Assembly: GCA_003858585.1 (NCBI GenBank)
Contig: RQZE01000008.1
Coordinates: 45,544 to 77,543 of the forward strand
Direction of reading: 5' to 3'
DNA length: 32,000 nt
DNA from: Erysipelotrichaceae bacterium OH741_COT-311
Lineage (GTDB): Bacteria > Bacillota_I > Bacilli_A > Erysipelotrichales > Erysipelotrichaceae
Part shown: positions 1 to 29,249 of the stretch, piece by piece
How positions within the stretch are numbered: the first letter of the stretch is position 1
How the letters are laid out: every line of letters starts with the position of its first letter
Translations under genes and position numbers: made by a program
Notes under the pieces: model-generated
Databases searched by the model: none
What the model saw: only the letters and a program-made list of their open reading frames with translations
Told to the model about the DNA's origin: nothing

Positions 1-2709
<2,709 letters not shown>

Positions 2710-2713
<4 letters not shown>

Positions 2714-2919
2714 CGATCTTTTACAATTTGATATGTACTTCCTTCTATTACAACAATATCCCCATGATACAACTTACGTCCACGACGATCTTCTTTTGCA
2801 TTATTTACAGTGATGTTTAGTTGTTTTACCATACATTTAGCTTGACCGCCACTTTGGATATAATCCGTTAATTTTAATAATTGTCCAAGGGTAATATATT
2901 CACTTGTAATATGAATCAT
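2710..2919 (-). CDS. yaaA: Small S4-domain RNA-binding protein (YaaA-like)
   Basis: 69-aa ORF with a 4-nt overlap with recF. It occupies the conserved dnaN-yaaA-recF position, and ITLGQLLKL...GGQAK is S4-like. Confidence 0.85.
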
Positions 2920-2992
2920 AATATCAATTTCCTTTTTTATACTAGATTATTATATCATAGTTTAATGTAATGTAGGTACCTACATATAAAAT

Positions 2993-3023
2993 AAAAAAAG
3001 CGCTTATTTTCAAAATAAACGCT
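2993..3023 (-). terminator. Rho-independent terminator after dnaN
   Basis: Inverted repeat agcgcttatttt / aaaataaacgct (2999-3010 / 3012-3023, one mismatch). On the minus strand it is followed by the T-run encoded by the plus-strand A-run 2993-2999. Confidence 0.55.
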
Positions 3024-3034
3024 ATATTCTAACA

Positions 3035-4159
3035 TTAGTTATAACTTCTTACCGGTAATACTAACTGAATAATACTTTCATCAACTAAAGAATTAATAAT
3101 AAACTGCTTCATTTCTCCACTGAAGTTAATCTTAACACGGGCATTTCCTAAAGCACGTAAAGCTTCAATGACATAACGACCGCTAAATGATAACTCAATC
3201 GGTTCTCCTTGATAGATAGCTCCATCTAATAATTCTTCTGATGATCCTACTTCTTGACTTCTCGATGAAACAATGACTTCTTCCGGACTTGCGGTTAATT
3301 TAATAATACTGATTCCTTCATTTTTAATGAAAGAAGCACGGTCAATCGCTTTTAATAATTCATAACCATCTACCTCTAAGAAACGATTAAAGTCTTTTAA
3401 AATCAAACGTTCTGCATCCGGATAATCTTCATTGATTAAACGAGTTTGAATGATGGTAGTATCAATAAAGAATTGTGCTTTTTTATTTGATACTGAAACT
3501 TGAATGTCTTTTTCTTCATTTAATGATTTTAAAACTTCATTTAAACTCTTTGCCGGAATTGTAATATTAAAAGTATTTGGTGTATCCAAATCTACCGTTT
3601 TTAATGCTAAACGATAGCTATCGGTAGCAATACATTTTAATTCATTACCGGAAGCTTTAAAATTTACTCCTGTTAAAGCAGGACGTGTTTCTTTATCTGA
3701 TGTTGCGAAAGTAGTTTGATTGATAATATCAACTAACGTTTTAGATGGCAAGGTAAAAGATTGTTCACATACGGTAAAATCAATTAATGGATAATCCGTA
3801 CTTCGAATACCATTGATATTAAATTCAGCATGATCACCACTGATTTTTGTTAATGAACCATCTACAATTTCAATCGTAATTTCACTGCTTTCAATCTTAC
3901 GAACAATTTCCATGATATATCTTGATTCAATAACAATACTACCTACTTCATTAACAATTAAGTTTAATTGTTCATTAGTATCATTGGATAATCTTGTTTG
4001 TATTGAAATATTAGAATCGGAACCTGTTAAAATTAATTCATTGTCTTTTACATCGATTTTGATACCTGTTAAAGAAGGTAATGGAGAATTATGAGAAACT
4101 GCACCTGCCACAATTGTAAGCGCATTGTAAAATGCTTTTTTTGAAACAATAAAATTCAT
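3035..4159 (-). CDS. dnaN: DNA polymerase III beta sliding clamp
   Basis: 374-aa ORF directly downstream of dnaA with the typical three-domain length. N-terminus MNFIVSKKAFYNALTIVAGAVS...PLPSLTGIKI and a C-terminal ...LVLPVRSYN-type ending. Confidence 0.95.
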   Translation of the reverse strand: MNFIVSKKAFYNALTIVAGAVSHNSPLPSLTGIKIDVKDNELILTGSDSNISIQTRLSNDTNEQLNLIVNEVGSIVIESRYIMEIVRKIESSEITIEIVDGSLTKISGDHAEFNINGIRSTDYPLIDFTVCEQSFTLPSKTLVDIINQTTFATSDKETRPALTGVNFKASGNELKCIATDSYRLALKTVDLDTPNTFNITIPAKSLNEVLKSLNEEKDIQVSVSNKKAQFFIDTTIIQTRLINEDYPDAERLILKDFNRFLEVDGYELLKAIDRASFIKNEGISIIKLTASPEEVIVSSRSQEVGSSEELLDGAIYQGEPIELSFSGRYVIEALRALGNARVKINFSGEMKQFIINSLVDESIIQLVLPVRSYN

Positions 4160-4299
4160 AGCGTTACTCCTTTTTATTTTTTATAAAGATTAAATACTAT
4201 TAGGACTGTGGATACTGTGTATAAGTTATAAAAGTCCTTATATACTAAAACTATTCTATCAAATTTTTATGTTAATTAAAAGTGAATAATTGTGGATAA
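4160..4299. other. oriC, dnaA-dnaN intergenic half (DnaA boxes plus AT-rich candidate unwinding region)
   Basis: Read on the dnaA-sense strand: a perfect TTATCCACA (complement of 4291-4299, abutting the dnaA stop) and GTATCCACA (complement of 4207-4215). These are followed by the very AT-rich stretch 4165-4206 just upstream of the dnaN RBS. Confidence 0.7.
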
Positions 4300-5649
4300 T
4301 TATACCTTGATAAGATGTTCAATCTCCATAATAACTTTTTGAAATAATGGATTCTCTTTGATCTGTTTCTCAACTTTTTCACAGGCATTCATTACTGTTG
4401 AATGATCACGTTTTCCGAATTCATCCCCTATTTTTAAATATGGCAAATCTAAATGTTTACGTGATAAATACATAGCAATATGGCGTGCTGTGGCTACATT
4501 TTTCGTGCGTACCTTAGATGTAAGTTGCTGTTTTGTTAAACCATAGTAATCACAGATAATCTTTTTTATAAAGTTAATGTTTAATTCCGTCTTTGTTTCC
4601 ACAACTTGTCCTTTAAAAGCATCCATTGCCATGGCTAAATCAATTTTATTACGCACACCTTTAAAATTAATGGAATAGAATAATAAACGAGTTAAAGCTC
4701 CTTCTAATGAACGAACATCCTTAGAGAAATTGGTTGCGATATAGGCTAAGGTATCTTCAGTAACGGTTTGTTTTAAATCTGTGTTATTGGTAAGTTTTGA
4801 TTTTAAAATATTAATACTTGTTTCAAACTCCGGAGATTCAATATTTACATTTAAGCCAGAATTAAAACGTGAAATAATACGATCTTCAAGTCCTTGGATT
4901 TCACTAGGAATGCAATCACTTGTTAAACAGATTTGTTTACGGTTATTTACAAGTTCATTAAACACACTAAAAAAGATTTCATGTGTCTTTTCTTTTCCGG
5001 CAATAAATTGAATGTCATCTACTAAAAGAAGGTCTAAATCATAGAGTTCTTTTTTAAATTCATCAAGTTTATTGGCTTTTGAGGATTTAACTACACAGTC
5101 AACAAATTCTAAACCGGAGATTAATCCAATCTTTTTATCTGGAAACATCTTTTTTACATGATTGCCAATGGCATTGAGTAAGTGTGTTTTTCCAAGACCT
5201 GAATTACCATAGATAAACAATGGATTGTAAGTGGTACCTGGATTATTTGCACATGTAAAAGCTGCAACCTGACTTTGTACATTGGAATTACCGATGACGA
5301 AATTTTCAAATGTATAATCACTTTTTAATTTATTTTTTAGGAAGTATGTTTTTACTTCGTTTGATTTTTGAATGCCAAAATGTTCAAAATATTGATTTTT
5401 AATAAATACTTCACAGTGTATTGTTCCATTTACAATGCGACTGATGTGATCGTTAATACTTGCTAAATAGTTATTAACAATCGCTAAACCCATATTATTT
5501 TCAACGATGATAATGGCTTTATTGTTATTGATGCTGTGGATATATGAAGTTTGCAAGTATTGTAGTGAATACGAATCATTGATCTCAAGGTCTAATAATT
5601 CTGTTGTTTTATTCCAAATATCCAGCAGGTATCTCTCATTTGTAACCAT
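4300..5649 (-). CDS. dnaA: Chromosomal replication initiator protein DnaA
   Basis: 449-aa ORF with AAA+ Walker A GNSGLGKTHLL, Walker B LLLVDDIQF and a C-terminal DnaA-box-binding HTH (VATARHIAMYLSRK...GDEFGKRDHSTV). The RBS is gggggg. Confidence 0.97.
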   Translation of the reverse strand: MVTNERYLLDIWNKTTELLDLEINDSYSLQYLQTSYIHSINNNKAIIIVENNMGLAIVNNYLASINDHISRIVNGTIHCEVFIKNQYFEHFGIQKSNEVKTYFLKNKLKSDYTFENFVIGNSNVQSQVAAFTCANNPGTTYNPLFIYGNSGLGKTHLLNAIGNHVKKMFPDKKIGLISGLEFVDCVVKSSKANKLDEFKKELYDLDLLLVDDIQFIAGKEKTHEIFFSVFNELVNNRKQICLTSDCIPSEIQGLEDRIISRFNSGLNVNIESPEFETSINILKSKLTNNTDLKQTVTEDTLAYIATNFSKDVRSLEGALTRLLFYSINFKGVRNKIDLAMAMDAFKGQVVETKTELNINFIKKIICDYYGLTKQQLTSKVRTKNVATARHIAMYLSRKHLDLPYLKIGDEFGKRDHSTVMNACEKVEKQIKENPLFQKVIMEIEHLIKV

Positions 5650-5735
5650 ATAGATTCCCCCCAGTACAACTATAATACATCATATTTATGGACTTGTATG
5701 ATGAAAATAAATGTAAAAAAGTTTCACACAGTAAA

Positions 5736-5965
5736 TGTGGATAAAATAAGACTATAAAATCAATATTTTATATAGTTATCCACAATTATCCACAACTTTT
5801 GAAAAGTGTAAATCTTGTGGATAAATAAATCACAATCACATAATGTGTGGATTACGTGCATAAAATACAGGGTGTGAAAAACTATAAACAACTTATCCAC
5901 CTAAGAAAAAACGATAGATGAGCAATTTTTTGTAGAAATGAATACTATCCACATTCTGTGGAAAA
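5736..5965. promoter_or_regulatory. oriC, dnaA-upstream DnaA-box cluster
   Basis: Four perfect TTATCCACA boxes: 5776-5784 and 5786-5794 forward, 5736-5744 and 5816-5824 reverse. Four boxes carry one mismatch: 5846-5854, 5893-5901, 5945-5953 and 5957-5965. Confidence 0.9.
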
Positions 5966-6003
5966 AAGTAAAAAAGGGATGTTTATAAGTTGTGTATAAG
6001 TAG

Positions 6004-6012
6004 TGGTATAAT
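6004..6012 (+). promoter_or_regulatory. Extended -10 promoter element (TGGTATAAT) for the VanY-like gene
   Basis: TGnTATAAT match lying 23 nt upstream of the ATG at 6035. The RBS aaagaggt follows it. Confidence 0.5.
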
Positions 6013-6034
6013 GTAGAAGATAAAGAGGTAAATT

Positions 6035-19644: not shown

Positions 19645-21228
19645 ATGGATAACAATCAAATTAAAACAAATGAAAGTATTCAACGTTCAGAATTACATCG
19701 AAAAATATGGGCAATTGCAGATAATGTACGTGGAACTGTAGATGGATGGGATTTTAAACAATACATACTAGGTATTTTATTCTATCGTTTTATTTCTGAA
19801 AATATGAAAGAATATTTTAATAAGGCAGAACATGAAGCAGGAGATTTGAAGTTTGATTATGCACGTATTTCTGATGAAGAAGCAGAACAATACTTCAAAC
19901 CCAATACAGTAGAAGATAAGGGTTATTTCATTCTTCCAAGTCAATTATTTGAAAACGTTGTAGAAAAAGCGAGAGTGAATTCAAATTTAAATGTTGAATT
20001 AGATACAATTTTTAAAAATATTGAATCAAGTGCAGTTGGTTTTGCATCTGAAGATGATATTAAAGGATTATTTGAAGATATTGATGTGCGTAGCAGTCGT
20101 TTAGGAAACACAGTTGAAGAAAAAAATAAGCGTTTAGCTGATATTTTAATTGGTATTTCAGAAATAAATTTTGGTCGCTTTGAAGAAAATCAAATTGATG
20201 CTTTCGGGGATGCGTATGAATATTTAATTTCTAACTATGCAAGTAATGCAGGAAAATCGGGTGGAGAGTACTTTACTCCACAAACCGTTTCTAAATTATT
20301 AGCTAGATTAGTTATGGAAGGAAAGAAAAAAATTAATAAAGTATATGATCCAACATGTGGCAGTGGTTCTTTACTTTTACAAATGAAAAAACAATTCGAA
20401 GAACATATTATCGAAGATGGTTTTTTTGGTCAAGAAAGTAATATGACAAACTATAACTTATCAAGAATGAATATGTTTTTACATAATATAAACTATAATA
20501 AGTTTTCAATTAAACATGGTGATACCTTATTAAAACCAATGCATAATGATGAAAAACCATTTGATGCAATTGTATCAAATCCTCCTTATTCAATTAAATG
20601 GGTAGGAGATGGAGATCCTACATTAATTAATGATGTACGTTTTGCTCCAGCTGGAAAACTTGCACCAAAAAAAAAAGCAGATTATGCATTTATTATGCAT
20701 TCCTTAAATTATTTATCTAGTCAAGGACGAGCAGCAATTGTTTGTTTCCCCGGAATCTTTTATCGAAAGAGTGCTGAAAAAACTATAAGACAATATCTAG
20801 TGGATAATAACTTTATTGATTGTGTTATTCAGTTACCAGAAAACTTATTCTTTGGAACTTCCATTGCAACTTGTGTTTTAGTTATGTCAAAAAATAAAAC
20901 TGAAAATAAAATATTATTTATTGATGCAAGTAAAGAATTTAAAAAAGAAACAAACAATTATATTTTAGAAGAAAAAAATATTGAAGTAATCGTAGAGGGA
21001 TTTAAAAACAGATCAGATAAACAATATTTTTCAAGATATGTAGATAAAAGTGAAATAGAAGAAAACGATTATAATTTATCTGTTTCAACATATGTAGAAA
21101 AAGAAGATACAAGAGAAGTTATTGATATTAAAGCTTTAAATAAAGAAATCGAAGAAACTGTAAGAAAAATTAATGAATTAAGAGATTCTATTAATGAAAT
21201 AGTAAAGGAGTTAGAAACAGATGCTTAA
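19645..21228 (+). CDS. hsdM: Type I restriction-modification system, DNA methyltransferase subunit
   Basis: 527 aa with an HsdM N-terminal domain, SAM motif [13 protein letters not shown] and catalytic motif [10 protein letters not shown]. hsdS and hsdR follow. Confidence 0.96.
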
Positions 21229-21294
21229 CAGTCAATGCAACTATCAACTAATAGTTGACAGTTCAAAAATTGTTAAATAATTGGGAAAAATAAT

Positions 21295-23235
21295 ATGAAA
21301 AAAATAGATAATTTATTACAAAATGAACATGTTGAATGGAAGAAATTAGGAGAAGTATGTGAGATTTTGAATGGGTATTCTTTTAAAAGTGAAAGCTATT
21401 CCTTTAGTGGAATACGTGTAATTAGAATTTCTGATGTTCAAAATGGATTTATTTCCAATAAAGAACTCAAGTATTATTCGTCAAATAATATCAAAGAAAT
21501 AGAAAGGTATTTATTATATGAAGATGATTTAGTAATTTCTTTAACTGGTAATGTAGGTCGCGTAGCACTAATTGATAAGTCTATTTTGCCTGCGGCTCTT
21601 AACCAAAGGGTTGCTTGTATTCGTTGTCCTAATCAAATAACATCAAAATATTTATTTCATTTTCTCAATCAAAATTTATTTGAAAAGATGGCAATTCAAA
21701 ATTCAAGTGGAGGAGGTCAAAAAAATTTAAGTACAATTTGGTTGAATAATTACGAAATCCCAATTCCTTCGTTAAAAACTCAAGAAAAAATAGTAAAAAC
21801 ACTTGACAAATTTACAAATTGTGTTACTGAACTACAGGCTGAACTACAGGCAAGAAATAAACAATATAATTACTATAGAGATAAATTACTAAGTGAAGAA
21901 TATCTAGGCAAAATCTCAAAGAAAATAGATAAGTTGGAAAATAAAAAGTATCAATTAAGAAGTACAACTCTTGGTGACGTAGGAGAATTCACAAGAGGGA
22001 ATGGATTACAAAAAAGTGATTTTACTTATAAAGGAAAACCAGCAATTCATTACGGTCAAATATATACCAAGTATGGATTTTCCACAGATAAAACAATTTC
22101 ATATGTAAGTGATGCGACTTATTCTAAATTAAGAAAAGCAAAAACAAATGATATTTTGATAGCTACAACCTCTGAAAACATAGAGGATGTTGGTAAAAGT
22201 ACAGTTTGGCTTGGAAAGGAAGAAATAGGATTTTCAGGAGATATGTATAGCTATAGCACAAATGAAAATTCTAAGTATATTGCTTATTATTTTCAAACTG
22301 AAGAATTTCATAAACAAAAAGCTAGAAAAATATCTGGAACAAAATTAATTCGTATTCACGGAGATGATATGAAAAAATTTTGCATAACTCTTCCATCACT
22401 AGAAATTCAAGAAAAAATTGTGGAAATTTTAGATAAATTTCAATCTATGCTTTCCGATACTCAAGGACTGTTGCCAAAAGAAATTGAGCAAAGAAAAAAA
22501 CAATATGAATATTATCGTGAAAAACTATTGACATTCAATACGATATGTGATAGCAAGCAAGCAAGCAAGATAATACCTACTAATTATTTTACTATATTAA
22601 AAGAAGCAGCAAATATTGTAGATGTAGAACTATATGCAGTTAAATGGAAAAGCCTTGGTGAAATAGGGAAATTTGAAAATGGAACAGGTATGCCAAAAAC
22701 AATGTTTAGTATGTCTGAAACTATTGGTGCAATACATTATGGTCATATTTATACAAAATACAACATGTTTGTTTACAATCCGATTGTTAATGTGAGCACA
22801 GAAAATGCAAAGAAATTAAAAAAAGTAAATCAAGGAGATTTAGTTATTGCTAAAACTTCTGAAAATGTAGAAGATATTATGAAAACAGTGGCATATTTAG
22901 GTGAAGGTCAGGTGGTAACCGGAGGACATGCTGCAATATTTAGCCATCAAGAAAATCCAAAATATTTGTCTTATGTGTTTAATGGTGCAAGTTATCTTAT
23001 AAGTCAAAAAAATAAATTAGCAAAAGGAGTTAAAGTGATAGAATTATCTATCTCTGATATGGAAAAAATAAAAATTCCATTACCTTCTCTTCCTGTTCAA
23101 GAATACATTGTTTCTATTTTGGATAAGTTTGACATGCTTGTAAATGATATTTCTCAAGGGCTTCCAAAAGAAATTGAATTAAGAAAAAAACAATATGAAT
23201 ATTATAGAGAAAAACTATTTAGCTTTAATAAATGA
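21295..23235 (+). CDS. hsdS: Type I R-M specificity subunit with three target-recognition domains (TRD1-CR1-TRD2-CR2-linker-TRD3-CR3)
   Basis: 646 aa, against roughly 400-450 for a typical HsdS. There are three TRD-like blocks (aa ~12-157, ~222-366, ~449-596). Each is followed by a conserved helix: PSLKTQEKIV...ARNKQYNYYRDKLL, PSLEIQEKIV...QRKKQYEYYREKLL and PSLPVQEYIV...LRKKQYEYYREKLF. Confidence 0.9.
   Translation: MKKIDNLLQNEHVEWKKLGEVCEILNGYSFKSESYSFSGIRVIRISDVQNGFISNKELKYYSSNNIKEIERYLLYEDDLVISLTGNVGRVALIDKSILPAALNQRVACIRCPNQITSKYLFHFLNQNLFEKMAIQNSSGGGQKNLSTIWLNNYEIPIPSLKTQEKIVKTLDKFTNCVTELQAELQARNKQYNYYRDKLLSEEYLGKISKKIDKLENKKYQLRSTTLGDVGEFTRGNGLQKSDFTYKGKPAIHYGQIYTKYGFSTDKTISYVSDATYSKLRKAKTNDILIATTSENIEDVGKSTVWLGKEEIGFSGDMYSYSTNENSKYIAYYFQTEEFHKQKARKISGTKLIRIHGDDMKKFCITLPSLEIQEKIVEILDKFQSMLSDTQGLLPKEIEQRKKQYEYYREKLLTFNTICDSKQASKIIPTNYFTILKEAANIVDVELYAVKWKSLGEIGKFENGTGMPKTMFSMSETIGAIHYGHIYTKYNMFVYNPIVNVSTENAKKLKKVNQGDLVIAKTSENVEDIMKTVAYLGEGQVVTGGHAAIFSHQENPKYLSYVFNGASYLISQKNKLAKGVKVIELSISDMEKIKIPLPSLPVQEYIVSILDKFDMLVNDISQGLPKEIELRKKQYEYYREKLFSFNK
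21829..21852 (+). repeat. 12-bp tandem duplication in the hsdS central conserved region
   Basis: gaactacaggct (21829-21840) followed by gaactacaggca (21841-21852), encoding ELQA-ELQA within ...VTELQAELQARNKQY... Confidence 0.9.
22474..22529 (+). repeat. Direct repeat copy 1 (hsdS CR2)
   Basis: ccaaaagaaattga...agaaaaaaacaatatgaatattat...aaaaactatt. Blocks of 14, 24 and 10 nt are identical to 23164-23219, exactly 690 bp (230 codons) downstream. Confidence 0.9.
22552..22569 (+). repeat. Tetranucleotide microsatellite (GCAA)4.5 inside hsdS
   Basis: agcaagcaagcaagcaag, encoding SKQASK. It lies 13 nt after the end of conserved region 2. Confidence 0.95.
23164..23219 (+). repeat. Direct repeat copy 2 (hsdS CR3)
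   Basis: See copy 1. The two copies are in frame with each other. Confidence 0.9.
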
Positions 23236-23251
23236 GTAAGGAGGGATTCGT

Positions 23252-26200
23252 GTGGAAGAGGTTAAAAGTCTGTATTGTACATCTTCAATTGCTGAGATGA
23301 CAAATGGGATTATTTTAGCTAATTATGAAAAAGTTTTAAGTGTACAAGAGTCGTATCAAACAGAAGCACAGTTGGAGAGTTATTTAATTGATAATTTAGA
23401 ATCACAAGGCTATGAAAGGTTTGTAGCACATACTAGTGAAGATTTATATAATAACTTAAAGATTCAAATGGAGCGTTTAAATAAAGTAACATTTACTTCT
23501 TCAGAGTGGAATCGCTTTTTAAATGAATTTTTGGATTGTCCAAATGATGGAATGATTGAAAAGACACGAAAAATTCAAGAAAATCACTTGTATGATTTTA
23601 TTTTTGATGATGGTAGCCTTGTTAATCTTAAAATCATAGATAAGCTAAATATACACAATAACTTCTTACAGGTTACAAATCAAATTGTACAATTTGGTAA
23701 ACATAAAAATCGTTATGATGTAACGATATTAATTAATGGATTACCTTTGGTTCATATTGAATTAAAGAGTCGTGGTGTAAGATTGCGTGAAGCATTTGAT
23801 CAAATACATCGATATAGCAAAGAGAGTTTTAATGCAAACCATTCTTTATACAAATATGTACAAATTTTTGTCATATCTAATGGTACGCATACACGTTATT
23901 TTGCAAATACAACTGCTCAAAATAAAAATAATTATGAGTTTACATGTGAATGGGCAGATGCAAAAAACAAAGCCATTAAAGATTTAGAAGATTTTACTAA
24001 AACATTTTTTGAAAAACGTGTATTACTAGAGGTATTAACAAAATATTGTGTATTTGATGTTAAGGATACATTATTAATATTACGACCTTATCAAATTGCA
24101 GCAACTGAGCGTATTTTATGGAAAATTAAATCAAGTTATGAAAGTAAAAGATCGGGAAAAGTAGAAGCTGGGGGATATATTTGGCATACAACAGGTTCTG
24201 GGAAGACATTAACTTCTTTTAAAACTGCCCGCTTAGCAACATCTCTATCGATTATCGATAAAGTATTTTTTGTAGTTGATCGTAAAGACTTGGACTATCA
24301 AACTATGAAAGAATATCAAAGATATCAAAAAGATAGTGTAAATGGTAGTAAAGATACAAAAGCGCTAAAAAAAGTTATAGAGCTAAATGATAATAAAATT
24401 ATTGTGACTACAATTCAAAAGTTAAATGAATTTGTAAAGAGAAATCAAAATCATGAAATATATCAAAAACATTGTGTTTTAATTTTTGATGAATGTCACC
24501 GTTCTCAATTTGGAGAAGCACAAAAAAATATAAAAAAAGCGTTTAAAAAATATTATCAGTTTGGTTTTACAGGAACGCCAATTTTTCCAGAAAATGCGAT
24601 TGGAACAGATACAACATCAAGTATTTTTGGTGCACAGCTACATAGTTATGTTATTACTGATGCGATTCGTGATGGTAAGGTTTTGAAGTTCAAAGTAGAT
24701 TATCATAATGTAAATGCTAAGTTTAAATCCGAAGAAAAAGAAACAGATTTAATGAAATTAAAGAGCTATGAAAAAAAGGTTTTAGCTTTACCAGAAAGAA
24801 TTTCAAGTATTACAAAACATATTTTAAAGGTATTTGATGATAAAACACGTCGTAATGAGTATTATGATTTGAAAAAGCGTCGATTAAATGGGTTTAATGC
24901 AATGTTTGCGGTTTCTAGTATAGAAGCAGCTAAATTATATTATGAAGAGTTTCAAAGACAACAAAAAGAACTTCCAGAAGAAAAAAGGCTTAAGGTAGCT
25001 ACAATTTATAGCTTTTCTGCAAATGAAGAGCAAAATGCAATAGGAGATATTGTAGAAGAAACATTTGAGCCTACTGCACTTGATTCTTCTTCAAAAGAAT
25101 TTTTAAGTAAAGTGATTAAAGATTATAATGGATACTTTAAAACAAATTATTCTCTTGATGGAAATGAATTTCAAAACTACTACAAAGATTTATCGGCAAG
25201 AGTTGCGAATCGTGAAGTTGATCTTTTAATTGTGGTTGGAATGTTTCTGACAGGATTTAATGCAGAAACGTTAAATACGTTGTTTGTAGATAAGAATTTA
25301 AGATATCATGGTCTAATACAAGCCTTTTCAAGAACTAATCGTATTTTAAATAAAGTGAAAACTTTTGGTAATATTGTATGTTTTCGTGATTTAGAAAAAG
25401 CAACTCAAGAAGCAATTAAAGTGTTTGGTGATGAAAATAGTGTAAATATTATTTTAGAGAAAAGTTATACAGAATATATTAATGGATTTGAAGATCAAGA
25501 AAGTGGAAGTGCATTTAAAGGTTATGAAAAAATATGTAAAGAAATCCTTGCCAAATTTCCTGATCCAACAGAAATTATTTTAGATGAAGACAAAAAAGAG
25601 TTTGTAAAATTGTTTGGTGAGCTTTTGAAAGCAGAGAATATTCTTAAGAATTTTGATGAATTTGAAAGTTATGATAATGGTATTTCTGAACGTCAAATGC
25701 AAGATATGAAGAGTGTTTATGTAGATATTCGAGAAGAAATATTAAATCAAAAACAACAAGAGAAAAACGAAAATGCAGGCATTGATTTTTCTGACATCGA
25801 GTTTCAAATAGATTTATTAAAAACAGATGAAATAAATTTAGATTATATTTTAGCTTTAATTTATGAAAAATCAAAAGAGCATAAAGATATTGAAGTATTG
25901 AAGTATGAAATTAGTCGCATCATACGTTCAAGTTTAGAAACGAGAGCAAAAGAAAAGCTTGTTATGGACTTTATTAATCATACTCGCATTTCAGAGCTTA
26001 AAACAAGCAAAGATATTATTAAATCATTCTATGAGTTTGCGAATAGAGAAAAGAAAAAAGAAGTCGAAAGATTAATTCAAGAAGAACATTTAAAAGAAGA
26101 AGCGGTTCGTTTTATTGAAAAGTCAATTGAAAAAGGATGGGTAGAAAATGCAGGCATTGAGCTGGATAGTGTTTTACCTCCTGTATCAAGAAGACAAGGT

Positions 26201-26272
26201 GCACGTGAAGCGAAAAAGCAACAAGTACTAGATAAAATTCGTAAGTTGGTAGAAGTATTTGTGGGGGTATAA
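23252..26272 (+). CDS. hsdR: Type I R-M restriction endonuclease/translocase subunit
   Basis: 1006 aa with a GTG start at 23252 and RBS aaggaggg. N-terminal PD-(D/E)xK motif (YDVTILINGLPLVHIELK) and SF2 motifs HTTGSGKT and FDECHRSQ. Confidence 0.95.
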   Translation: MEEVKSLYCTSSIAEMTNGIILANYEKVLSVQESYQTEAQLESYLIDNLESQGYERFVAHTSEDLYNNLKIQMERLNKVTFTSSEWNRFLNEFLDCPNDGMIEKTRKIQENHLYDFIFDDGSLVNLKIIDKLNIHNNFLQVTNQIVQFGKHKNRYDVTILINGLPLVHIELKSRGVRLREAFDQIHRYSKESFNANHSLYKYVQIFVISNGTHTRYFANTTAQNKNNYEFTCEWADAKNKAIKDLEDFTKTFFEKRVLLEVLTKYCVFDVKDTLLILRPYQIAATERILWKIKSSYESKRSGKVEAGGYIWHTTGSGKTLTSFKTARLATSLSIIDKVFFVVDRKDLDYQTMKEYQRYQKDSVNGSKDTKALKKVIELNDNKIIVTTIQKLNEFVKRNQNHEIYQKHCVLIFDECHRSQFGEAQKNIKKAFKKYYQFGFTGTPIFPENAIGTDTTSSIFGAQLHSYVITDAIRDGKVLKFKVDYHNVNAKFKSEEKETDLMKLKSYEKKVLALPERISSITKHILKVFDDKTRRNEYYDLKKRRLNGFNAMFAVSSIEAAKLYYEEFQRQQKELPEEKRLKVATIYSFSANEEQNAIGDIVEETFEPTALDSSSKEFLSKVIKDYNGYFKTNYSLDGNEFQNYYKDLSARVANREVDLLIVVGMFLTGFNAETLNTLFVDKNLRYHGLIQAFSRTNRILNKVKTFGNIVCFRDLEKATQEAIKVFGDENSVNIILEKSYTEYINGFEDQESGSAFKGYEKICKEILAKFPDPTEIILDEDKKEFVKLFGELLKAENILKNFDEFESYDNGISERQMQDMKSVYVDIREEILNQKQQEKNENAGIDFSDIEFQIDLLKTDEINLDYILALIYEKSKEHKDIEVLKYEISRIIRSSLETRAKEKLVMDFINHTRISELKTSKDIIKSFYEFANREKKKEVERLIQEEHLKEEAVRFIEKSIEKGWVENAGIELDSVLPPVSRRQGAREAKKQQVLDKIRKLVEVFVGV

Positions 26273-26290
26273 AAATTAGTATATATTTAG

Positions 26291-27592
26291 ATGAGGGGAG
26301 ATAATAATACTGTGAAAAAGCATATATTGTTGAAGTATCTAGATGAATACTTTGAAGTTAACATAACTTTAGATTCAAAGTATACTATTGGAGATAATAT
26401 TAATAAAATTTGCACACTTTCAGAATATCAAGAAATAGTTCAAAATAATTTGATTTTTTGGGAAAAAAACTTTAAAAATGAAACAATTAGTTATTTTTCG
26501 TTTTGGGAAGAAAAACAAAAAAAATTAAATCAAATATATGGTATGATGCAACAAATAAAAAAAGAAGAATTTATATCTAAATTAAATGAAATTTGTGATT
26601 TTCTTAGTGTTGGACGGTTTAACGATAGTGGAATAGAAAATAAAATAAAAAAACAAATAAATATCAAAATAGAATCTCTTTTGATTGGGTGCTGTCAATT
26701 TGAAAGGTGTATACATTTTATAAAATTAATATATGATAATGATGATAAAAGTCTAAGAACTGAACAAATTTTACACAATTATATATATTTAATAAAGAAT
26801 CCTTATATGATAGGGTCATATTTTTCATCAAACTACAAAGAACAAAGTTTTCCAGCTTATGTGTTGTTATCAGAAAATATAAAATCGGAAAATAAAAATT
26901 GGACTTTGATTTCAAAAAATATTGAAGAAGATTTGGCTCATGAAAAAGAAAATTTGGAGAAAAGTTTTCAAGAAAAGTATAGCGATGCAATTCAAGAAAT
27001 ACACGATATAGAAAAAGAAATAAGAGAATTTTCAGAAAAATATCATGAGGAAAAAAATAAGAGACTGAAAGAATTAGAAGAACAAAATCAAAAATTAGTA
27101 AATAATTTATCAGTTTTAGAGACAACATATAAAGAAAAACTAAAATTAGAAGCTCCAGAACAACTATGGATTGAAAAAGCTAAACAGCAGAAAAAATCAG
27201 TAGTAATTTGGCTTTTAATTACTATCTGTACCGCTATTTTGTTGATTTACTCATTGGGTTGGCTCATTCCAACAATCTATGAATCTAATTTGAAAGAGAA
27301 TATAATTTTAAATAAAAGTTTTTTCTTGATTGCAATTATAACATTTTTTGTCTATATCATTAGGATAGAAGTTAAAGTTTTGCTTTCTTCAAGGCACCTT
27401 CAGTTAGTATATGAAGAAAAAGCTGCATTAACTAGATTTTATCAAGCATTAATATATGCTGGAAATCATATAGATGAAAATCAACTACTTTTAATTTATA
27501 GTATGTTATTTAAGGATACGGATACTGGGTTGGTGAAATCAAGTGATGGCACAGATATTGAAAGTATTGTTTCCACAATAATTCGAAAATAA
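26291..27592 (+). CDS. Uncharacterised coiled-coil / two-TM protein appended to the hsd operon
   Basis: 433-aa ORF 18 nt after the hsdR stop with no intervening hairpin. N-terminal ~200 aa have no motif I recognise; aa ~208-300 form a K/E-rich coiled coil. TM helices are SVVIWLLITICTAILLIYSLGWLIP and FFLIAIITFFVYIIRIEVKVLL, followed by a ~65-aa tail. The start is ambiguous: ATG 26291 lacks an SD, and the in-frame GTG 26312 follows gagggga. Confidence 0.75.
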   Translation: MRGDNNTVKKHILLKYLDEYFEVNITLDSKYTIGDNINKICTLSEYQEIVQNNLIFWEKNFKNETISYFSFWEEKQKKLNQIYGMMQQIKKEEFISKLNEICDFLSVGRFNDSGIENKIKKQINIKIESLLIGCCQFERCIHFIKLIYDNDDKSLRTEQILHNYIYLIKNPYMIGSYFSSNYKEQSFPAYVLLSENIKSENKNWTLISKNIEEDLAHEKENLEKSFQEKYSDAIQEIHDIEKEIREFSEKYHEEKNKRLKELEEQNQKLVNNLSVLETTYKEKLKLEAPEQLWIEKAKQQKKSVVIWLLITICTAILLIYSLGWLIPTIYESNLKENIILNKSFFLIAIITFFVYIIRIEVKVLLSSRHLQLVYEEKAALTRFYQALIYAGNHIDENQLLLIYSMLFKDTDTGLVKSSDGTDIESIVSTIIRK

Positions 27593-27638: not shown

Positions 27639-27668
27639 AAAGAAGTTTAGCTTTAACTAAACTTCTTT
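27639..27668. terminator. Bidirectional terminator shared by the 433-aa ORF and the NERD gene
   Basis: 12-bp stem aaagaagtttag / ctaaacttcttt with loop ctttaa. It overlaps the last codons and stop of the NERD gene. Confidence 0.65.
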
Positions 27669-28252
27669 CTGTTTTCATAAGGTAACAGCTCATCTACAAC
27701 ACCTTTTAGTAAAGGGTGATAGTCGTATATGAATTTTTCTATTTGATTAAATTTAATGACATTCCTTATATCTGTTTTCAGCCTTGTTCGATTGGCAAAA
27801 ACAACCACCGAAACCAATGAGTCATGATCAACACCTGTAAAGGCTGAAATAGTCTTTGTATGTGCATAGTTTTGACGTAGTGGATTTTGAAAGCGATACT
27901 TTTGTTTACCAAGATAATGTGTCCATTGACTACTAAACGATGTGCCATACACACTTCCTGCATAGTTTTTAATTTCTGCAACAAACGTACTTCCGTTAAA
28001 TTCAAACACACAATCTATTTCAATTTCTTTTTCATCATTTTCCAACACTACATTCATTACAATATCTTCAACCCCCATAGCAACTAATTGATTATAAAAA
28101 TGAATTTCGGCACGTTTTCCTTTGTTTAAAAAGTAGATATAAAATGGTGTTTGATATCTAATATAATAAGGAGTTTTATGATAATTTAATCTCTGAAACC
28201 AAAAAAATGCAAAAACAAATAAAATAATGAGTAACATAATAATCCCCTTCAC
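27653..28252 (-). CDS. Membrane-anchored NERD-domain (nuclease-related, PD-(D/E)xK-like) protein
   Basis: 199 aa with an N-terminal TM helix (IIMLLIILFVFAFFWF). NERD-like core GKRAE...EIDCVFEFNGSTFVAEIKNYAGSVYG...W...QNPLRQNYAH. Starts at GTG 28252 (RBS gagga) or ATG 28237. Confidence 0.8.
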   Translation of the reverse strand: MKGIIMLLIILFVFAFFWFQRLNYHKTPYYIRYQTPFYIYFLNKGKRAEIHFYNQLVAMGVEDIVMNVVLENDEKEIEIDCVFEFNGSTFVAEIKNYAGSVYGTSFSSQWTHYLGKQKYRFQNPLRQNYAHTKTISAFTGVDHDSLVSVVVFANRTRLKTDIRNVIKFNQIEKFIYDYHPLLKGVVDELLPYENRKKFS

Positions 28253-28334: not shown

Positions 28335-29249
28335 ATGAAAACACTCTTAATTGGAAATGGATTAAATCGTTGTCTAAATACAAACATAGACTGGGGAAAC
28401 CTTTTAAACAGCATGAAAGAACACTATCATCTAAAAGATAAAATACATCCTGACATCAGTTTTCCTATGCAGTTTGAATGCATTGCCAATCATGTAAGTA
28501 AGCAAAAACACCACAAAAACGTATATACTCTTCTTAAAGAAGAAATCGCATCTAAGGTAAAGGAAATCAAAGCCATAGATGATAAGGAAATGGTACCACA
28601 TAGTTACTTTTTAAAAGACAAACGATATAAACGCATTCTAACAACCAACTACGACTATGTAATAGAAGACTACTTAAAACATACCTACAACCTTGCTGAT
28701 GAAGACCTTACATCCAATCAAAAAGAAATTAAGTATAGTTTAAGACGTTATCGTAAACTTCAAGATACTTACATCTTTCATATTCATGGAGAAGCCGATA
28801 AACCTGAAACCTTATGTTTGGGCTATGAACATTATGCAGGCACTATTCAATATCTACGTGGTAAACTTGCGTTGAAGGAAACATCACCACTATTGCATGT
28901 TTTAAAAAATAAACAAGTTACTCCAGACATCATTGAAACTTATTCTTGGGCAATTTTATTCTTGATTGATGATATTGAGATTATAGGATTAGGACTGGAT
29001 GAATCCGAGATTGATTTATGGTGGCTGATTAGTTATCGTGCTTATTTAAAGAATATGCATCCAGAAGCTTCTAGGTATATTCATAACACCATTACTTATC
29101 ATGAAATAATTAGTGAACATAGTGATTTACAATATATTAAAAAACGTAAAAGTCTGTTTGACAGTATGGACATTCAATACACAATGCATGAAGTAAAACA
29201 TTCTAATTATCTAGAAGGCTACTACGACATTGCAAAGACAATCGAATAA
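28335..29249 (+). CDS. AbiH-like / SIR2_2-like (DHS-like NAD-binding fold) protein
   Basis: 304 aa with an N-terminal Gly loop LLIGNGLNR, then ILTTNYD (N105), IFHIHGE (H151) and IIGLGLDESEIDLWW. This is the ordered motif set shared by the AbiH and SIR2_2 families. It has no SLOG, TIR or other extra domain. Confidence 0.7.
   Translation: MKTLLIGNGLNRCLNTNIDWGNLLNSMKEHYHLKDKIHPDISFPMQFECIANHVSKQKHHKNVYTLLKEEIASKVKEIKAIDDKEMVPHSYFLKDKRYKRILTTNYDYVIEDYLKHTYNLADEDLTSNQKEIKYSLRRYRKLQDTYIFHIHGEADKPETLCLGYEHYAGTIQYLRGKLALKETSPLLHVLKNKQVTPDIIETYSWAILFLIDDIEIIGLGLDESEIDLWWLISYRAYLKNMHPEASRYIHNTITYHEIISEHSDLQYIKKRKSLFDSMDIQYTMHEVKHSNYLEGYYDIAKTIE

What the first reader, a model, noticed from the sequence alone, without database searches (positions are those of the whole stretch)
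22552..22569. (GCAA)4.5 microsatellite placed at the junction between the complete 2-TRD HsdS and the extra TRD3, where a change of one unit in either direction creates an immediate stop
The tract agcaagcaagcaagcaag begins 13 nt after CR2 ends. I worked through both slippage outcomes by hand. Loss of one GCAA gives ...gat agc aag caa gca aga TAA. Gain of one unit gives ...agc aag caa gat aat acc tac TAA. Either slip would therefore convert the 646-aa three-TRD protein into an ordinary HsdS of about 421-427 aa. TRD3 has no in-frame ATG or GTG with an RBS before M466, so it could be expressed only in the current repeat phase. This resembles the simple-sequence contingency switches known in R-M genes of Haemophilus, Neisseria, Helicobacter and Mycoplasma. 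However, four to five units is short for efficient slippage.
Basis: partly seen in the sequence, partly recalled or inferred. Interest (0 to 1): 0.7.

Follow-up and report, generated by a model that had tools for sequence, protein, structure and literature searches.

The report
Repeat-driven switch in restriction specificity gene
A short four-letter DNA repeat sits exactly where a normal two-domain restriction-enzyme specificity gene is fused to a third DNA-reading domain, so gaining or losing one repeat switches that domain on or off. This is real and conserved in dozens of bacterial genera, but the design was already described in 2019.

Summary
AGCAAGCAAGCAAGCAAG (22552-22569) is the only tetranucleotide repeat of 3 or more units in the window. 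It lies 15 nt after the CR2 'LLTF' codon of a 646-aa, three-TRD HsdS inside an hsdM-hsdS-hsdR operon of the EcoR124 (Type IC) kind. Losing one unit gives a 424-aa product and gaining one gives 430 aa; both are complete two-TRD HsdS proteins.

- Two other strains of the same species (Erysipelotrichaceae bacterium COT-311-like) carry 6.5 units. Their hsdS stops at ...SKQASKQAR*, and an intact TRD3 follows out of frame.
- In 43 species-representative genomes, homologous extended hsdS genes carry a repeat at the same junction. The units differ (1, 2, 4, 5, 7 or 11 nt) and none is a multiple of three.
- Of those 43, 11 are in frame and 32 out of frame, all with an intact TRD3 ORF.

The architecture is not new. 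Atack et al. [quoted passage not shown] This is a new member of a known kind.

At 4.5 units the switching rate in this strain is probably low. How the three-TRD protein assembles is still unknown.

The parts
19645..21228 (+). hsdM, the Type I methyltransferase subunit (527 aa)
   Evidence: HsdM_N plus N6_Mtase, E 7.7e-116. Identical to RRC91924.1 of Erysipelotrichaceae bacterium OH741_COT-311.
21295..23235 (+). Extended hsdS: one 646-aa ORF with three TRDs, in the in-frame (ON) repeat phase
   Evidence: Three Methylase_S stretches. More than 100 full-length homologues of 600-670 aa. AF2 mean pLDDT 81. The best solved relative is EcoR124II HsdS, E 5.2e-30.
21334..21765 (+). TRD1 (about aa 14-157)
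   Evidence: AF2 secondary structure. Allele shared with strain L001 and different in L084.
21772..21888 (+). CR1, the central conserved helix (aa 160-198). It contains the 12-bp repeat CTGAACTACAGG x2 (21827-21851), which encodes ELQAELQA.
   Evidence: Helix 160-198. TRF period 12, 2.1 copies. Three copies in strain L084.
21946..22392 (+). TRD2 (TRD 2a in the published naming; about aa 218-366)
   Evidence: Same allele in L084 and a different one in L001.
22399..22536 (+). CR2 helix (aa 369-414), ending in the family-invariant YEYYREKLLTF
   Evidence: Helix 369-412. Invariant columns R408-F414. Direct repeat with CR3, 87% over 67 nt.
22552..22569 (+). (AGCA/GCAA) x4.5 simple-sequence repeat: the frame switch (codons 420-425, SKQASK)
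   Evidence: 6.5 units in strains L001 and L084. Lies in an AF2 segment with pLDDT below 50, residues 415-428.
22571..22573 (+). TAA stop used after a change of -1 or +2 units (products of 424 and 428 aa)
   Evidence: Used naturally in L001 and L084, which end ...SKQASKQAR*.
22581..22583 (+). TAA stop used after a change of +1 or -2 units (products of 430 and 426 aa)
22579..22617 (+). Conserved linker helix (aa 429-441, YFTILKEAANIVD) between the repeat and TRD3
   Evidence: Helix 429-441. Family consensus YFxxLKEAAxIVGV.
22642..23082 (+). TRD3 (TRD 2b; about aa 450-596), translated only in the present repeat phase
   Evidence: The TRD2+CR2 and TRD3+CR3 modules are 44% identical, E 2e-54. No start codon before codon 466. 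The allele differs in all three strains.
23089..23235 (+). CR3 helix (aa 599-646) and the stop codon
   Evidence: Helices 599-617 and 619-642. Amino-acid sequence of the CR3 region identical in L001 and L084.
23252..26272 (+). hsdR, the Type IC-like restriction subunit (1006 aa, GTG start)
   Evidence: HSDR_N, SWI2_SNF2, T1R_D3-like and EcoR124_C domains.
26291..27592 (+). DUF6161 / AbiZ-like gene 19 nt after hsdR, probably the last gene of the operon
   Evidence: PF19658, E 1.2e-36. PADLOC AbiZ, E 3.5e-33. Also follows hsdR in L084. Terminator-like hairpin at 27639-27668.

Best explanation
The tract is the hypermutable junction of an 'extended' phase-variable Type I specificity gene.

Proposed mechanism:
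- Slipped-strand mispairing at (AGCA)n during replication changes the unit number.
- In one phase out of three (here 4.5 units) the ribosome reads from CR2 through a disordered linker into a second copy of the C-terminal module (TRD3-CR3). The product is a 646-aa three-TRD HsdS.
- In the other two phases translation stops 1-5 codons after the tract. The product is a complete, canonical two-TRD HsdS of 424-430 aa.
- Both forms should assemble with HsdM and HsdR, so the switch changes target specificity rather than turning the system off.
- By analogy with the Mannheimia haemolytica system (CAACN4GT against CAACN5TC), one half-site would be exchanged in the extended form.

Basis of each step:
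- Shown here: the tract, its frame consequences, length polymorphism between strains, an intact TRD3 in out-of-frame strains, and conservation of a non-triplet repeat at this junction across many genera.
- Inferred: that switching happens at an appreciable rate in this strain with only 4.5 units, that both forms are active, and which TRDs pair in the extended protein.
For: - The tract exists, is unique in the window and is unlikely by chance.
- The frame arithmetic is as stated.
- Same-species strains L001 and L084 have 6.5 units. Each has a stop right after the tract and an intact TRD3 ORF of 222-227 aa in another frame, followed by the same CR3. The difference from the window is exactly two units.
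- Protein P0099 ends ...SKQASKQAR*, which is the +2-unit product predicted.
- Family census: 43 species-representative genomes have a repeat starting 14-24 nt after the LLTF codon. Unit lengths are 4 (21 loci), 2 (11), 7 (4), 5 (4), 1 (3) and 11 (1); none is a multiple of three. Copy numbers run from 2.6 to 28.5.
- Phase in that census: 11 in frame and 32 out of frame, not different from one third (binomial p = 0.33). Every counted out-of-frame locus keeps a TRD3 ORF of at least 204 aa; an open frame of at least 185 aa was a criterion for counting, and no locus failed it for a broken TRD3.
- The roughly 115 full-length protein homologues show the matching peptide periodicities (SKQASK, THART, RTNERT, RQTD, LPAC, SQSV, THTH, RERE, STAQH, KPQAASR). 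Near-identical flanks differ by 3-unit steps.
- The repeat-encoded residues fall in the only internal AF2 segment with pLDDT below 50, residues 415-428. That is a linker able to tolerate length changes.
- TRD3+CR3 is a paralogue of TRD2+CR2 (44% identity, E 2e-54).
- There is no start codon for independent TRD3 translation in the window or in most out-of-frame loci.
- The same architecture and switch, with methylome evidence, were published for M. haemolytica and F. nucleatum (PMC7383803).
- The tract meets that paper's length criterion of at least 3 units.
Against: - The tract is short. Three-unit tetranucleotide tracts are cited as varying at only 0.5-2 x 10^-6, so this strain may be nearly locked ON.
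- Only three strains of the species were found, and two share the same length. The difference could be an old polymorphism rather than frequent switching.
- There are no read-level (within-population) data, no methylome and no protein data for this organism.
- The AF2 domain arrangement is unreliable (pTM 0.47), so how TRD3 is used is not shown.
- A pattern scan of JGI metagenomes for further length variants found nothing.
Confidence: 0.85

Rival explanations
1. The tract is only a low-complexity peptide linker (SKQASK) in a stably expressed three-TRD HsdS. It has no switching role, and the length differences between strains are neutral.
For: The tract is short at 4.5 units. Its residues lie in a disordered linker. 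Among protein homologues, in-frame length variants differing by 4 aa are tolerated.
Against: - A peptide linker would be conserved at the amino-acid level, or would use triplet units. Instead the DNA units differ completely between lineages and are never multiples of three.
- Three quarters of species representatives are out of frame, and both other strains of this species are out of frame by exactly two units.
- Stops lie immediately after the tract in both alternative frames.
Confidence: 0.05
2. The functional gene is the ordinary two-TRD hsdS. TRD3-CR3 is a silent spare cassette, or a remnant of a tandem half-hsdS, used only as a recombination donor. The in-frame fusion in this strain is an accident without function.
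For: - Most loci are out of frame (32 of 43).
- CR2 and CR3 are direct repeats, 87% identical over 67 nt, and could support recombination.
- TRD alleles are clearly shuffled between strains, with breakpoints at the conserved regions.
Against: - A purely silent cassette would not need a non-triplet repeat at a fixed position or a conserved translated linker helix (YFxxLKEAAxIVGV).
- The in-frame fraction (26%) is what random phase predicts, not depleted.
- In M. haemolytica the extended protein is reported as expressed and changes the methylated motif (PMC7383803).
Confidence: 0.07
3. In the out-of-frame state TRD3-CR3 is translated separately, by re-initiation after the nearby stop, as a half-HsdS. 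That half-HsdS dimerises and adds a palindromic specificity. The switch would then be 'fused' against 'two proteins' rather than 'with' against 'without' TRD3.
For: - Half-HsdS dimers are functional in NgoAV (cited in PMC7383803).
- Gene callers annotate a 162-163-aa product downstream in L001 and L084.
- A few family members have a start codon at the beginning of the TRD3 frame: L012, L025, L031 and L070.
Against: - In the window and its two sister strains, the first ATG, GTG or TTG in the TRD3 frame lies 40-64 codons in, past the linker helix and the conserved TRD start. The product would lack the first strands of the TRD.
- An upstream start is absent from most out-of-frame loci.
Confidence: 0.03

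Closest known systems
Extended phase-variable hsdS genes of Mannheimia haemolytica (G[n]) and Fusobacterium nucleatum (AAGAC[n]); Atack et al., FASEB J 2020;34:1038 (PMC7383803)
   Same: - Three TRDs (1, 2a, 2b) in one hsdS.
[quoted passage not shown]
- One phase gives the three-TRD protein and the others give a complete two-TRD HsdS.
- Multiple TRD alleles combine between strains.
   Different: - The repeat unit is GCAA/AGCA and the tract is shorter (4.5-6.5 units).
- The host is an Erysipelotrichaceae canine oral taxon.
- Sequence homology to the published genes was not tested.
- Here the same junction design is traced through 43 species representatives with at least 20 different units, wider than the two examples discussed in the paper's text.
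NgoAV hsdS of Neisseria gonorrhoeae (poly-G)
   Same: A repeat inside hsdS changes specificity rather than switching the system off (as summarised in PMC7383803).
   Different: In NgoAV the tract lies between TRD1 and TRD2. The frameshift gives a half-HsdS that must dimerise. Here the frameshifted product is a full two-TRD HsdS, and the in-frame product has an extra TRD.
GCAA[n] tracts in hsdS of Haemophilus (Glaesserella) parasuis (7-29 units) and Pseudomonas aeruginosa (3-16 units)
   Same: The same tetranucleotide unit inside an hsdS gene, with length polymorphism between strains.
   Different: Those tracts separate TRD1 from TRD2 (full-length against truncated). This one separates TRD2 from an additional TRD3.
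EcoR124I / EcoR124II (Type IC), where 12-bp repeats in the central conserved region set spacer length
   Same: - HsdR carries the EcoR124_C domain.
- The best solved relative of HsdS is EcoR124II HsdS.
- CR1 holds a 12-bp (4-aa) tandem repeat: 2 copies here and 3 in strain L084.
- That copy number sets the N6 or N7 spacer in EcoR124I/II is from my own knowledge of the literature, not a tool result.
   Different: EcoR124 HsdS has two TRDs and no frame-shifting repeat. The effect of the CR1 repeat on spacer length is not shown for this system.
Inverting hsdS shufflons (e.g. the Streptococcus pneumoniae SpnD39III/ivr locus; survey in PMC7394358)
   Same: Stochastic change of Type I specificity by swapping TRDs, using spare TRD-CR modules next to the expressed hsdS.
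   Different: Those systems use a site-specific recombinase and inverted silent hsdS copies. Here the spare module is in direct orientation, there is no recombinase gene in the operon, and the switch is a frameshift.

Membership tests
Extended phase-variable hsdS (Atack et al. 2019) | Three TRDs encoded in one hsdS reading frame or region | tested here: met
   Three Methylase_S stretches in the 646-aa ORF. Three TRD folds, each followed by a long helix, in the AF2 model. TRD3+CR3 is 44% identical to TRD2+CR2.
Extended phase-variable hsdS (Atack et al. 2019) | [quoted passage not shown] | tested here: met
   (AGCA)4.5 at 22552-22569, 15 nt after the CR2 'LLTF' codon and before the TRD3 linker.
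Extended phase-variable hsdS (Atack et al. 2019) | Tract length reaches the survey's threshold (at least 3 units for units of 3 nt or more) | tested here: met
   4.5 units. The threshold is quoted from the paper's methods.
Extended phase-variable hsdS (Atack et al. 2019) | A change of repeat number toggles between a complete two-TRD HsdS and a three-TRD HsdS | tested here: met
   In silico: 424, 430, 426 and 428 aa against 646 aa. Natural out-of-frame alleles of 402 and 411 aa occur in L001 and L084, each with an intact downstream TRD3.
Extended phase-variable hsdS (Atack et al. 2019) | Repeat number differs between strains of the species | tested here: met
   4.5 units (window, identical to L002) against 6.5 (L001) and 6.5 (L084). 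Only three strains were available.
Extended phase-variable hsdS (Atack et al. 2019) | The two protein forms give different methylation specificities | not testable with these tools
   Needs SMRT or ONT methylomes of phase variants. Known only for M. haemolytica.
Extended phase-variable hsdS (Atack et al. 2019) | Sequence homology to the published M. haemolytica or F. nucleatum genes | not tested
   Those sequences were not retrieved. Two Fusobacterium sp. MAG loci (L025, L026) belong to this family but carry CAACG and GCCT units, not AAGAC.
Type IC restriction-modification (EcoR124 family) | hsdM, hsdS and hsdR genes, with an HsdR that carries the EcoR124-type C-terminal domain | tested here: met
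   Operon 19645-26272. PF12008 EcoR124_C, E 6.8e-59.
Type IC restriction-modification (EcoR124 family) | HsdS most similar to EcoR124 HsdS, with a 4-aa tandem repeat in the central conserved region | tested here: met
   7bst_A, E 5.2e-30. ELQAELQA encoded by 12 bp x2, x3 in L084.
Type IC restriction-modification (EcoR124 family) | Subunit complementation or cross-hybridisation with other family IC members | not testable with these tools
   This is an experimental criterion.
ON/OFF phasevarion of the Type III mod / hsdM kind | A frameshift in the repeat abolishes the methyltransferase activity | tested here: not met
   Out-of-frame products keep TRD1-CR1-TRD2-CR2 intact, and hsdM has no conserved repeat. 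The switch is between two forms, not on and off.

The most novel reading that the evidence does not exclude
The extended three-TRD HsdS may not work by TRD3 simply taking the place of TRD2.

The protein is a chain of three equivalent (TRD-CR) modules, so several assemblies are possible:
- It could pair CR2 with CR3, using TRD2+TRD3 and leaving TRD1 free.
- The spare module could dimerise with that of a second molecule.
Either route would give two specificities at once, or a specificity that no two-TRD enzyme in the cell has.

Two further variables sit in the same gene: the 12-bp CR1 repeat (2 or 3 copies between strains) and the shuffling of all three TRD alleles. One gene would then carry three independent stochastic dials for methylation and restriction specificity. 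The design is spread across at least 20 genera, many of them oral, gut or genital-tract taxa.
Probability: 0.2. Interest if true: 0.6.

Novelty: new member of a known kind. Interest (0 to 1): 0.4.

Why it matters
If the tract slips, a clonal population of this bacterium holds cells with two different Type I methylation and restriction specificities.

That has two likely consequences. It diversifies defence against phage and foreign DNA. It could also, as in other phasevarions, change the expression of sets of genes.

The comparison made here shows the design is not a curiosity of two pathogens. It is a large homologous family in Peptoniphilus, Gemella, Fusobacterium, Treponema, Veillonella, Finegoldia, Parvimonas, Streptococcus and others. 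In that family the position of the repeat is conserved while its sequence turns over. About one locus in four is in frame, which is what unconstrained phase variation predicts.

For annotation, the 'split' hsdS S1+S2 pairs in these genomes should be read as out-of-frame phases of one gene, not as pseudogenes.

How a three-TRD specificity subunit assembles with two HsdM remains an open structural question, and this family could be used to address it.

Tried and rejected
- More strains through the exact HsdM sequence: this returned only the contig identical to the window. Cluster members P0124 and P0122 gave one more informative strain (L084) and one contig that ends inside hsdS (L085), so its junction is not visible. 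The NCBI strain's HsdR (P0127, 991 aa) has no DNA on record.
- Pattern scan of JGI metagenome contigs for the junction with a variable gap: 0 hits. I did not use the second scan because the genome census was sufficient.
The inter-domain arrangement is therefore not interpretable. Foldseek against the PDB only confirms the HsdS fold.
- Promoter scan: matches are no more frequent than in shuffled sequence (60 against 54.8 +/- 6.7), so no internal promoter for TRD3 can be claimed.
- Supplementary tables of Atack et al., to see whether these genera were already listed: not held.
- Assembly or sequencing artefact: rejected. An independent Logan assembly is 100% identical over 7.9 kb including the tract, and homologues show the same design.
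- Programmed ribosomal frameshifting: considered and not pursued. Stops follow immediately in both other frames, and the repeat units differ between lineages, which fits DNA-level slippage better.
Full report
**1. The observation**

Window 22552-22569 reads AGCAAGCAAGCAAGCAAG. Tandem Repeats Finder reports period 4, 4.5 copies and 100% matches. It is the only tetranucleotide repeat of 3 or more units in the 32-kb window, and there are no penta- or hexanucleotide repeats. In 300 first-order Markov simulations of the window, only one contained any period-4 run of 18 nt or more.

The tract forms codons 420-425 (SKQASK) of the ORF 21295-23235 (646 aa). That ORF has three Methylase_S stretches.

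The ORF sits between hsdM (19645-21228) and hsdR (23252-26272). HsdR carries the EcoR124_C domain, and the best solved relative of the HsdS is EcoR124II HsdS (E 5.2e-30). This is therefore a Type IC-like system.

Recomputing the slippage outcomes gives:

| Change in units | Product | Length |
|---|---|---|
| -1 | ...DSKQAR* | 424 aa |
| +1 | ...SKQASKQDNTY* | 430 aa |
| -2 | (not listed) | 426 aa |
| +2 | (not listed) | 428 aa |

No ATG, GTG or TTG occurs in the TRD3 frame before codon 466.

**2. Anatomy**

The AF2 model was built on an alignment of 48 family members and has a mean pLDDT of 81. It shows the same pattern three times: a TRD followed by a long helix.
- TRD1 is followed by CR1 (helix 160-198).
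- TRD2 is followed by CR2 (helix 369-412).
- TRD3 (450-596) is followed by CR3 (helices 599-642).

The only internal segment with pLDDT below 50 is residues 415-428. This is exactly the stretch that contains the repeat-encoded residues. A short conserved helix follows at 429-441 (YFTILKEAANIVD).

The TRD2+CR2 and TRD3+CR3 modules are paralogous (44% identity, E 2e-54). They recur with a 690-nt period, and the CR2 and CR3 DNA is 87% identical over 67 nt. The extra part is therefore a second copy of the C-terminal half of an HsdS, attached through a flexible linker that the repeat encodes.

The pTM of 0.47 means the relative arrangement of the three modules cannot be trusted.

**3. Same-species comparison**

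The window's HsdM and Mfd are identical to proteins of 'Erysipelotrichaceae bacterium OH741_COT-311'. An independent Logan assembly, L002, is 100% identical to the window over 7,941 nt including the tract.

Two other strains share flanks that are 94-99% identical. Both differ from the window by exactly two repeat units.

| Strain | Repeat | hsdS product | TRD3 |
|---|---|---|---|
| Window | (AGCA)4.5 | 646 aa, in frame | translated |
| L001 | (AGCA)6.5 | 402 aa, ends ...SKQASKQAR* | intact 227-aa open frame, different allele, same CR3 |
| L084 | (AGCA)6.5 | 411 aa, same stop | intact, third allele |

The alleles are mosaics:
- TRD1 is shared by the window and L001.
- TRD2 is shared by the window and L084.
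- TRD3 differs in all three strains.
- The breakpoints lie at the conserved regions.

**4. Family comparison**

A protein search returned more than 100 homologues of 600-670 aa that cover the whole query. After the invariant 'YEYYREKLLTF', almost all of them show a peptide periodicity that betrays a non-triplet DNA repeat:
- SKQASK(QASK), THART, RTNERT, RQTDRQTD, RPTDRPTD, LPACLPAC and SQSVSQSV indicate 4-nt units.
- THTHTH and RERERE indicate 2-nt units.
- STAQHSTAQH indicates a 5-nt unit.
- KPQAASRKPQAASR indicates a 7-nt unit.

Near-identical flanks differ by steps of three units. Truncated proteins P0099 and P0102 end just after the repeat.

I checked this at the DNA level in loci from species-representative genomes. 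Forty-three junctions carry a repeat that begins 14-24 nt after the LLTF codon.
- Unit lengths are 4 (21 loci), 2 (11), 7 (4), 5 (4), 1 (3) and 11 (1). None is a multiple of three.
- Copy numbers run from 2.6 to 28.5. The tetranucleotide median is 6.5 and the range is 3-28.5.
- Eleven are in frame and 32 are out of frame, which is not different from one in three (binomial p = 0.33).
- Every counted out-of-frame locus keeps a TRD3 open frame of at least 204 aa. An open frame of at least 185 aa was one of the counting criteria, and no locus was excluded for a decayed TRD3. Frames this long are very unlikely without selection in AT-rich DNA.
- In most out-of-frame loci no start codon precedes the linker helix.

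The genera include Peptoniphilus, Gemella, Peptococcus, Lachnoanaerobaculum, Fusobacterium, Leptotrichiaceae, Ezakiella, Oribacterium, Veillonella, Treponema, Streptococcus, Parvimonas, Granulicatella, Eggerthia and Tissierella (Filifactor and Fenollaria loci were also retrieved but fell outside the 43).

A position that is conserved while the repeat sequence is not, together with random phase and a preserved downstream module, is the signature of a contingency locus.

**5. Mechanism**

The best-supported reading has four steps:
- Slipped-strand mispairing changes the unit number.
- One phase in three reads through the linker into TRD3-CR3.
- The other two phases stop at TAA 22571-22573 or TAA 22581-22583 and give a canonical HsdS.
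- Both forms retain TRD1-CR1-TRD2-CR2, so the switch is between two specificities and not on/off.

Which TRDs act in the extended form is inferred only from the literature. In M. haemolytica the two-TRD form methylates CAACN4GT and the extended form CAACN5TC. The authors suggest that TRD 2b replaces TRD 2a (PMC7383803). Pairing of CR2 with CR3, or dimerisation of the spare module, is not excluded.

With 4.5 units the rate here is probably low. The same paper cites 0.5-2 x 10^-6 for a three-unit tetranucleotide tract. Eight of the 21 tetranucleotide family members have 4.5 units or fewer, and they occur in both phases.

**6. Comparison with what is known**

Atack et al. (FASEB J 2020;34:1038, PMC7383803) surveyed REBASE for repeats in Type I genes. 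In section 3.4 and figures 3-4 they describe 'extended phase-variable hsdS genes':
- three TRDs;
- G[n] in Mannheimia haemolytica and AAGAC[5-12] in Fusobacterium nucleatum;
- multiple alleles of each TRD.

They also report GCAA[n] tracts in hsdS of Haemophilus parasuis and Pseudomonas aeruginosa, but those lie between TRD1 and TRD2. A full-text search found no other paper using these terms.

The window meets every sequence-level criterion of that class. The methylation criterion cannot be tested here, and homology to the published genes was not tested. The window does not fit the on/off phasevarion class, because the frameshifted product is complete.

The verdict is a new member of a known kind. 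What this analysis adds is the breadth of the homologous family and its phase statistics.

**7. Rivals**

| Rival | Why it is unlikely |
|---|---|
| A plain peptide linker | Units are never triplets and are not conserved; out-of-frame loci are in the majority |
| A silent spare cassette used only for recombination | The linker is conserved in translation, the phase fraction matches random expectation, and published data exist for M. haemolytica. Recombination between CRs clearly also happens. |
| Separate translation of TRD3 as a half-HsdS | No suitable start codon in this species or in most relatives |
| Assembly artefact | An independent assembly is identical |

**8. Scores**

Confidence that this is a slippage-driven extended-hsdS switch is 0.85. 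Interest is 0.4. The finding is correct and well supported, and the family-wide pattern is striking, but a specialist would recognise the published design.

Noticed in passing
window 21827-21851 (CR1 of hsdS); L084 7120-7155: A 12-bp tandem repeat, CTGAACTACAGG x2, encodes ELQAELQA in the central conserved helix. Strain L084 has three copies (TELQAELQAELQA) and L001 has two. This resembles the EcoR124I/II repeat that sets the length of the non-specific spacer (that comparison is from my own knowledge). It would be a second, in-frame length-variable dial in the same gene.
   Followed up: partly
window 20667-20676 (inside hsdM): An A10 homopolymer encodes PKKKA. The other strains have interrupted versions (CCAAAAAATTATGCA in L001 and L084; CCCAAAAAAAATGCA in L085). 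The long run is therefore specific to this strain and is not a conserved slippage site, though it could be mutable.
   Followed up: partly
window 26291-27592 (+), 27653-28252 (-), 28335-29249 (+): A DUF6161 protein matching the PADLOC AbiZ model (E 3.5e-33) lies 19 nt after hsdR, and also follows hsdR in L084. Next come a NERD-domain gene and a SIR2_2 / weakly ThsA-like gene. Together with the Type I system these look like a small defence island.
   Followed up: partly
L001 2412-4130; L085 3066-4784: Two sister strains carry an extra 572-aa gene with N6_Mtase and Methylase_S domains (a fused methylase-specificity protein) just upstream of hsdM. L001 and L084 also carry an EcsC-family gene upstream of the GDSL lipase gene. 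The window lacks both, so the insertion site is variable between strains.
   Followed up: no
window 1634-6034: recF (1634-2713, -), dnaN (3035-4159, -) and dnaA (4300-5649, -) are followed by an intergenic region. That region contains TTATCCACAA x2 (5776-5795), which matches the DnaA-box consensus, and an 11-nt repeat at 5980-6011. This is probably the chromosomal replication origin, about 16 kb from the Type I operon.
   Followed up: no
NCBI strain OH741_COT-311 (proteins RRC91924.1 to RRC91931.1; no DNA fetched): In the named NCBI strain, HsdM is identical to the window's but HsdR is 991 aa instead of 1006. Six accession numbers separate HsdM from HsdR. This suggests a different or split hsdS arrangement, or extra genes, in that strain.
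   Followed up: no
L060 about 1994-2040; L005 about 931-1000: Some family members have unusual junction repeats. L060 has an 11-nt unit (ACCGAACATTA x3, Lachnoanaerobaculum MAG). L005 has an 8-nt unit (TAGACAGA x6, Filifactor villosus) that carries a stop codon in one frame. Both show that the junction accepts long and compound units.
   Followed up: no
PADLOC model PDLC03126 (Specificity_I, 690 positions): One PADLOC Type I specificity model is 690 positions long. The window protein matches it with E 1.1e-133, so an extended-length S-subunit profile already exists in that defence-system library.
   Followed up: no
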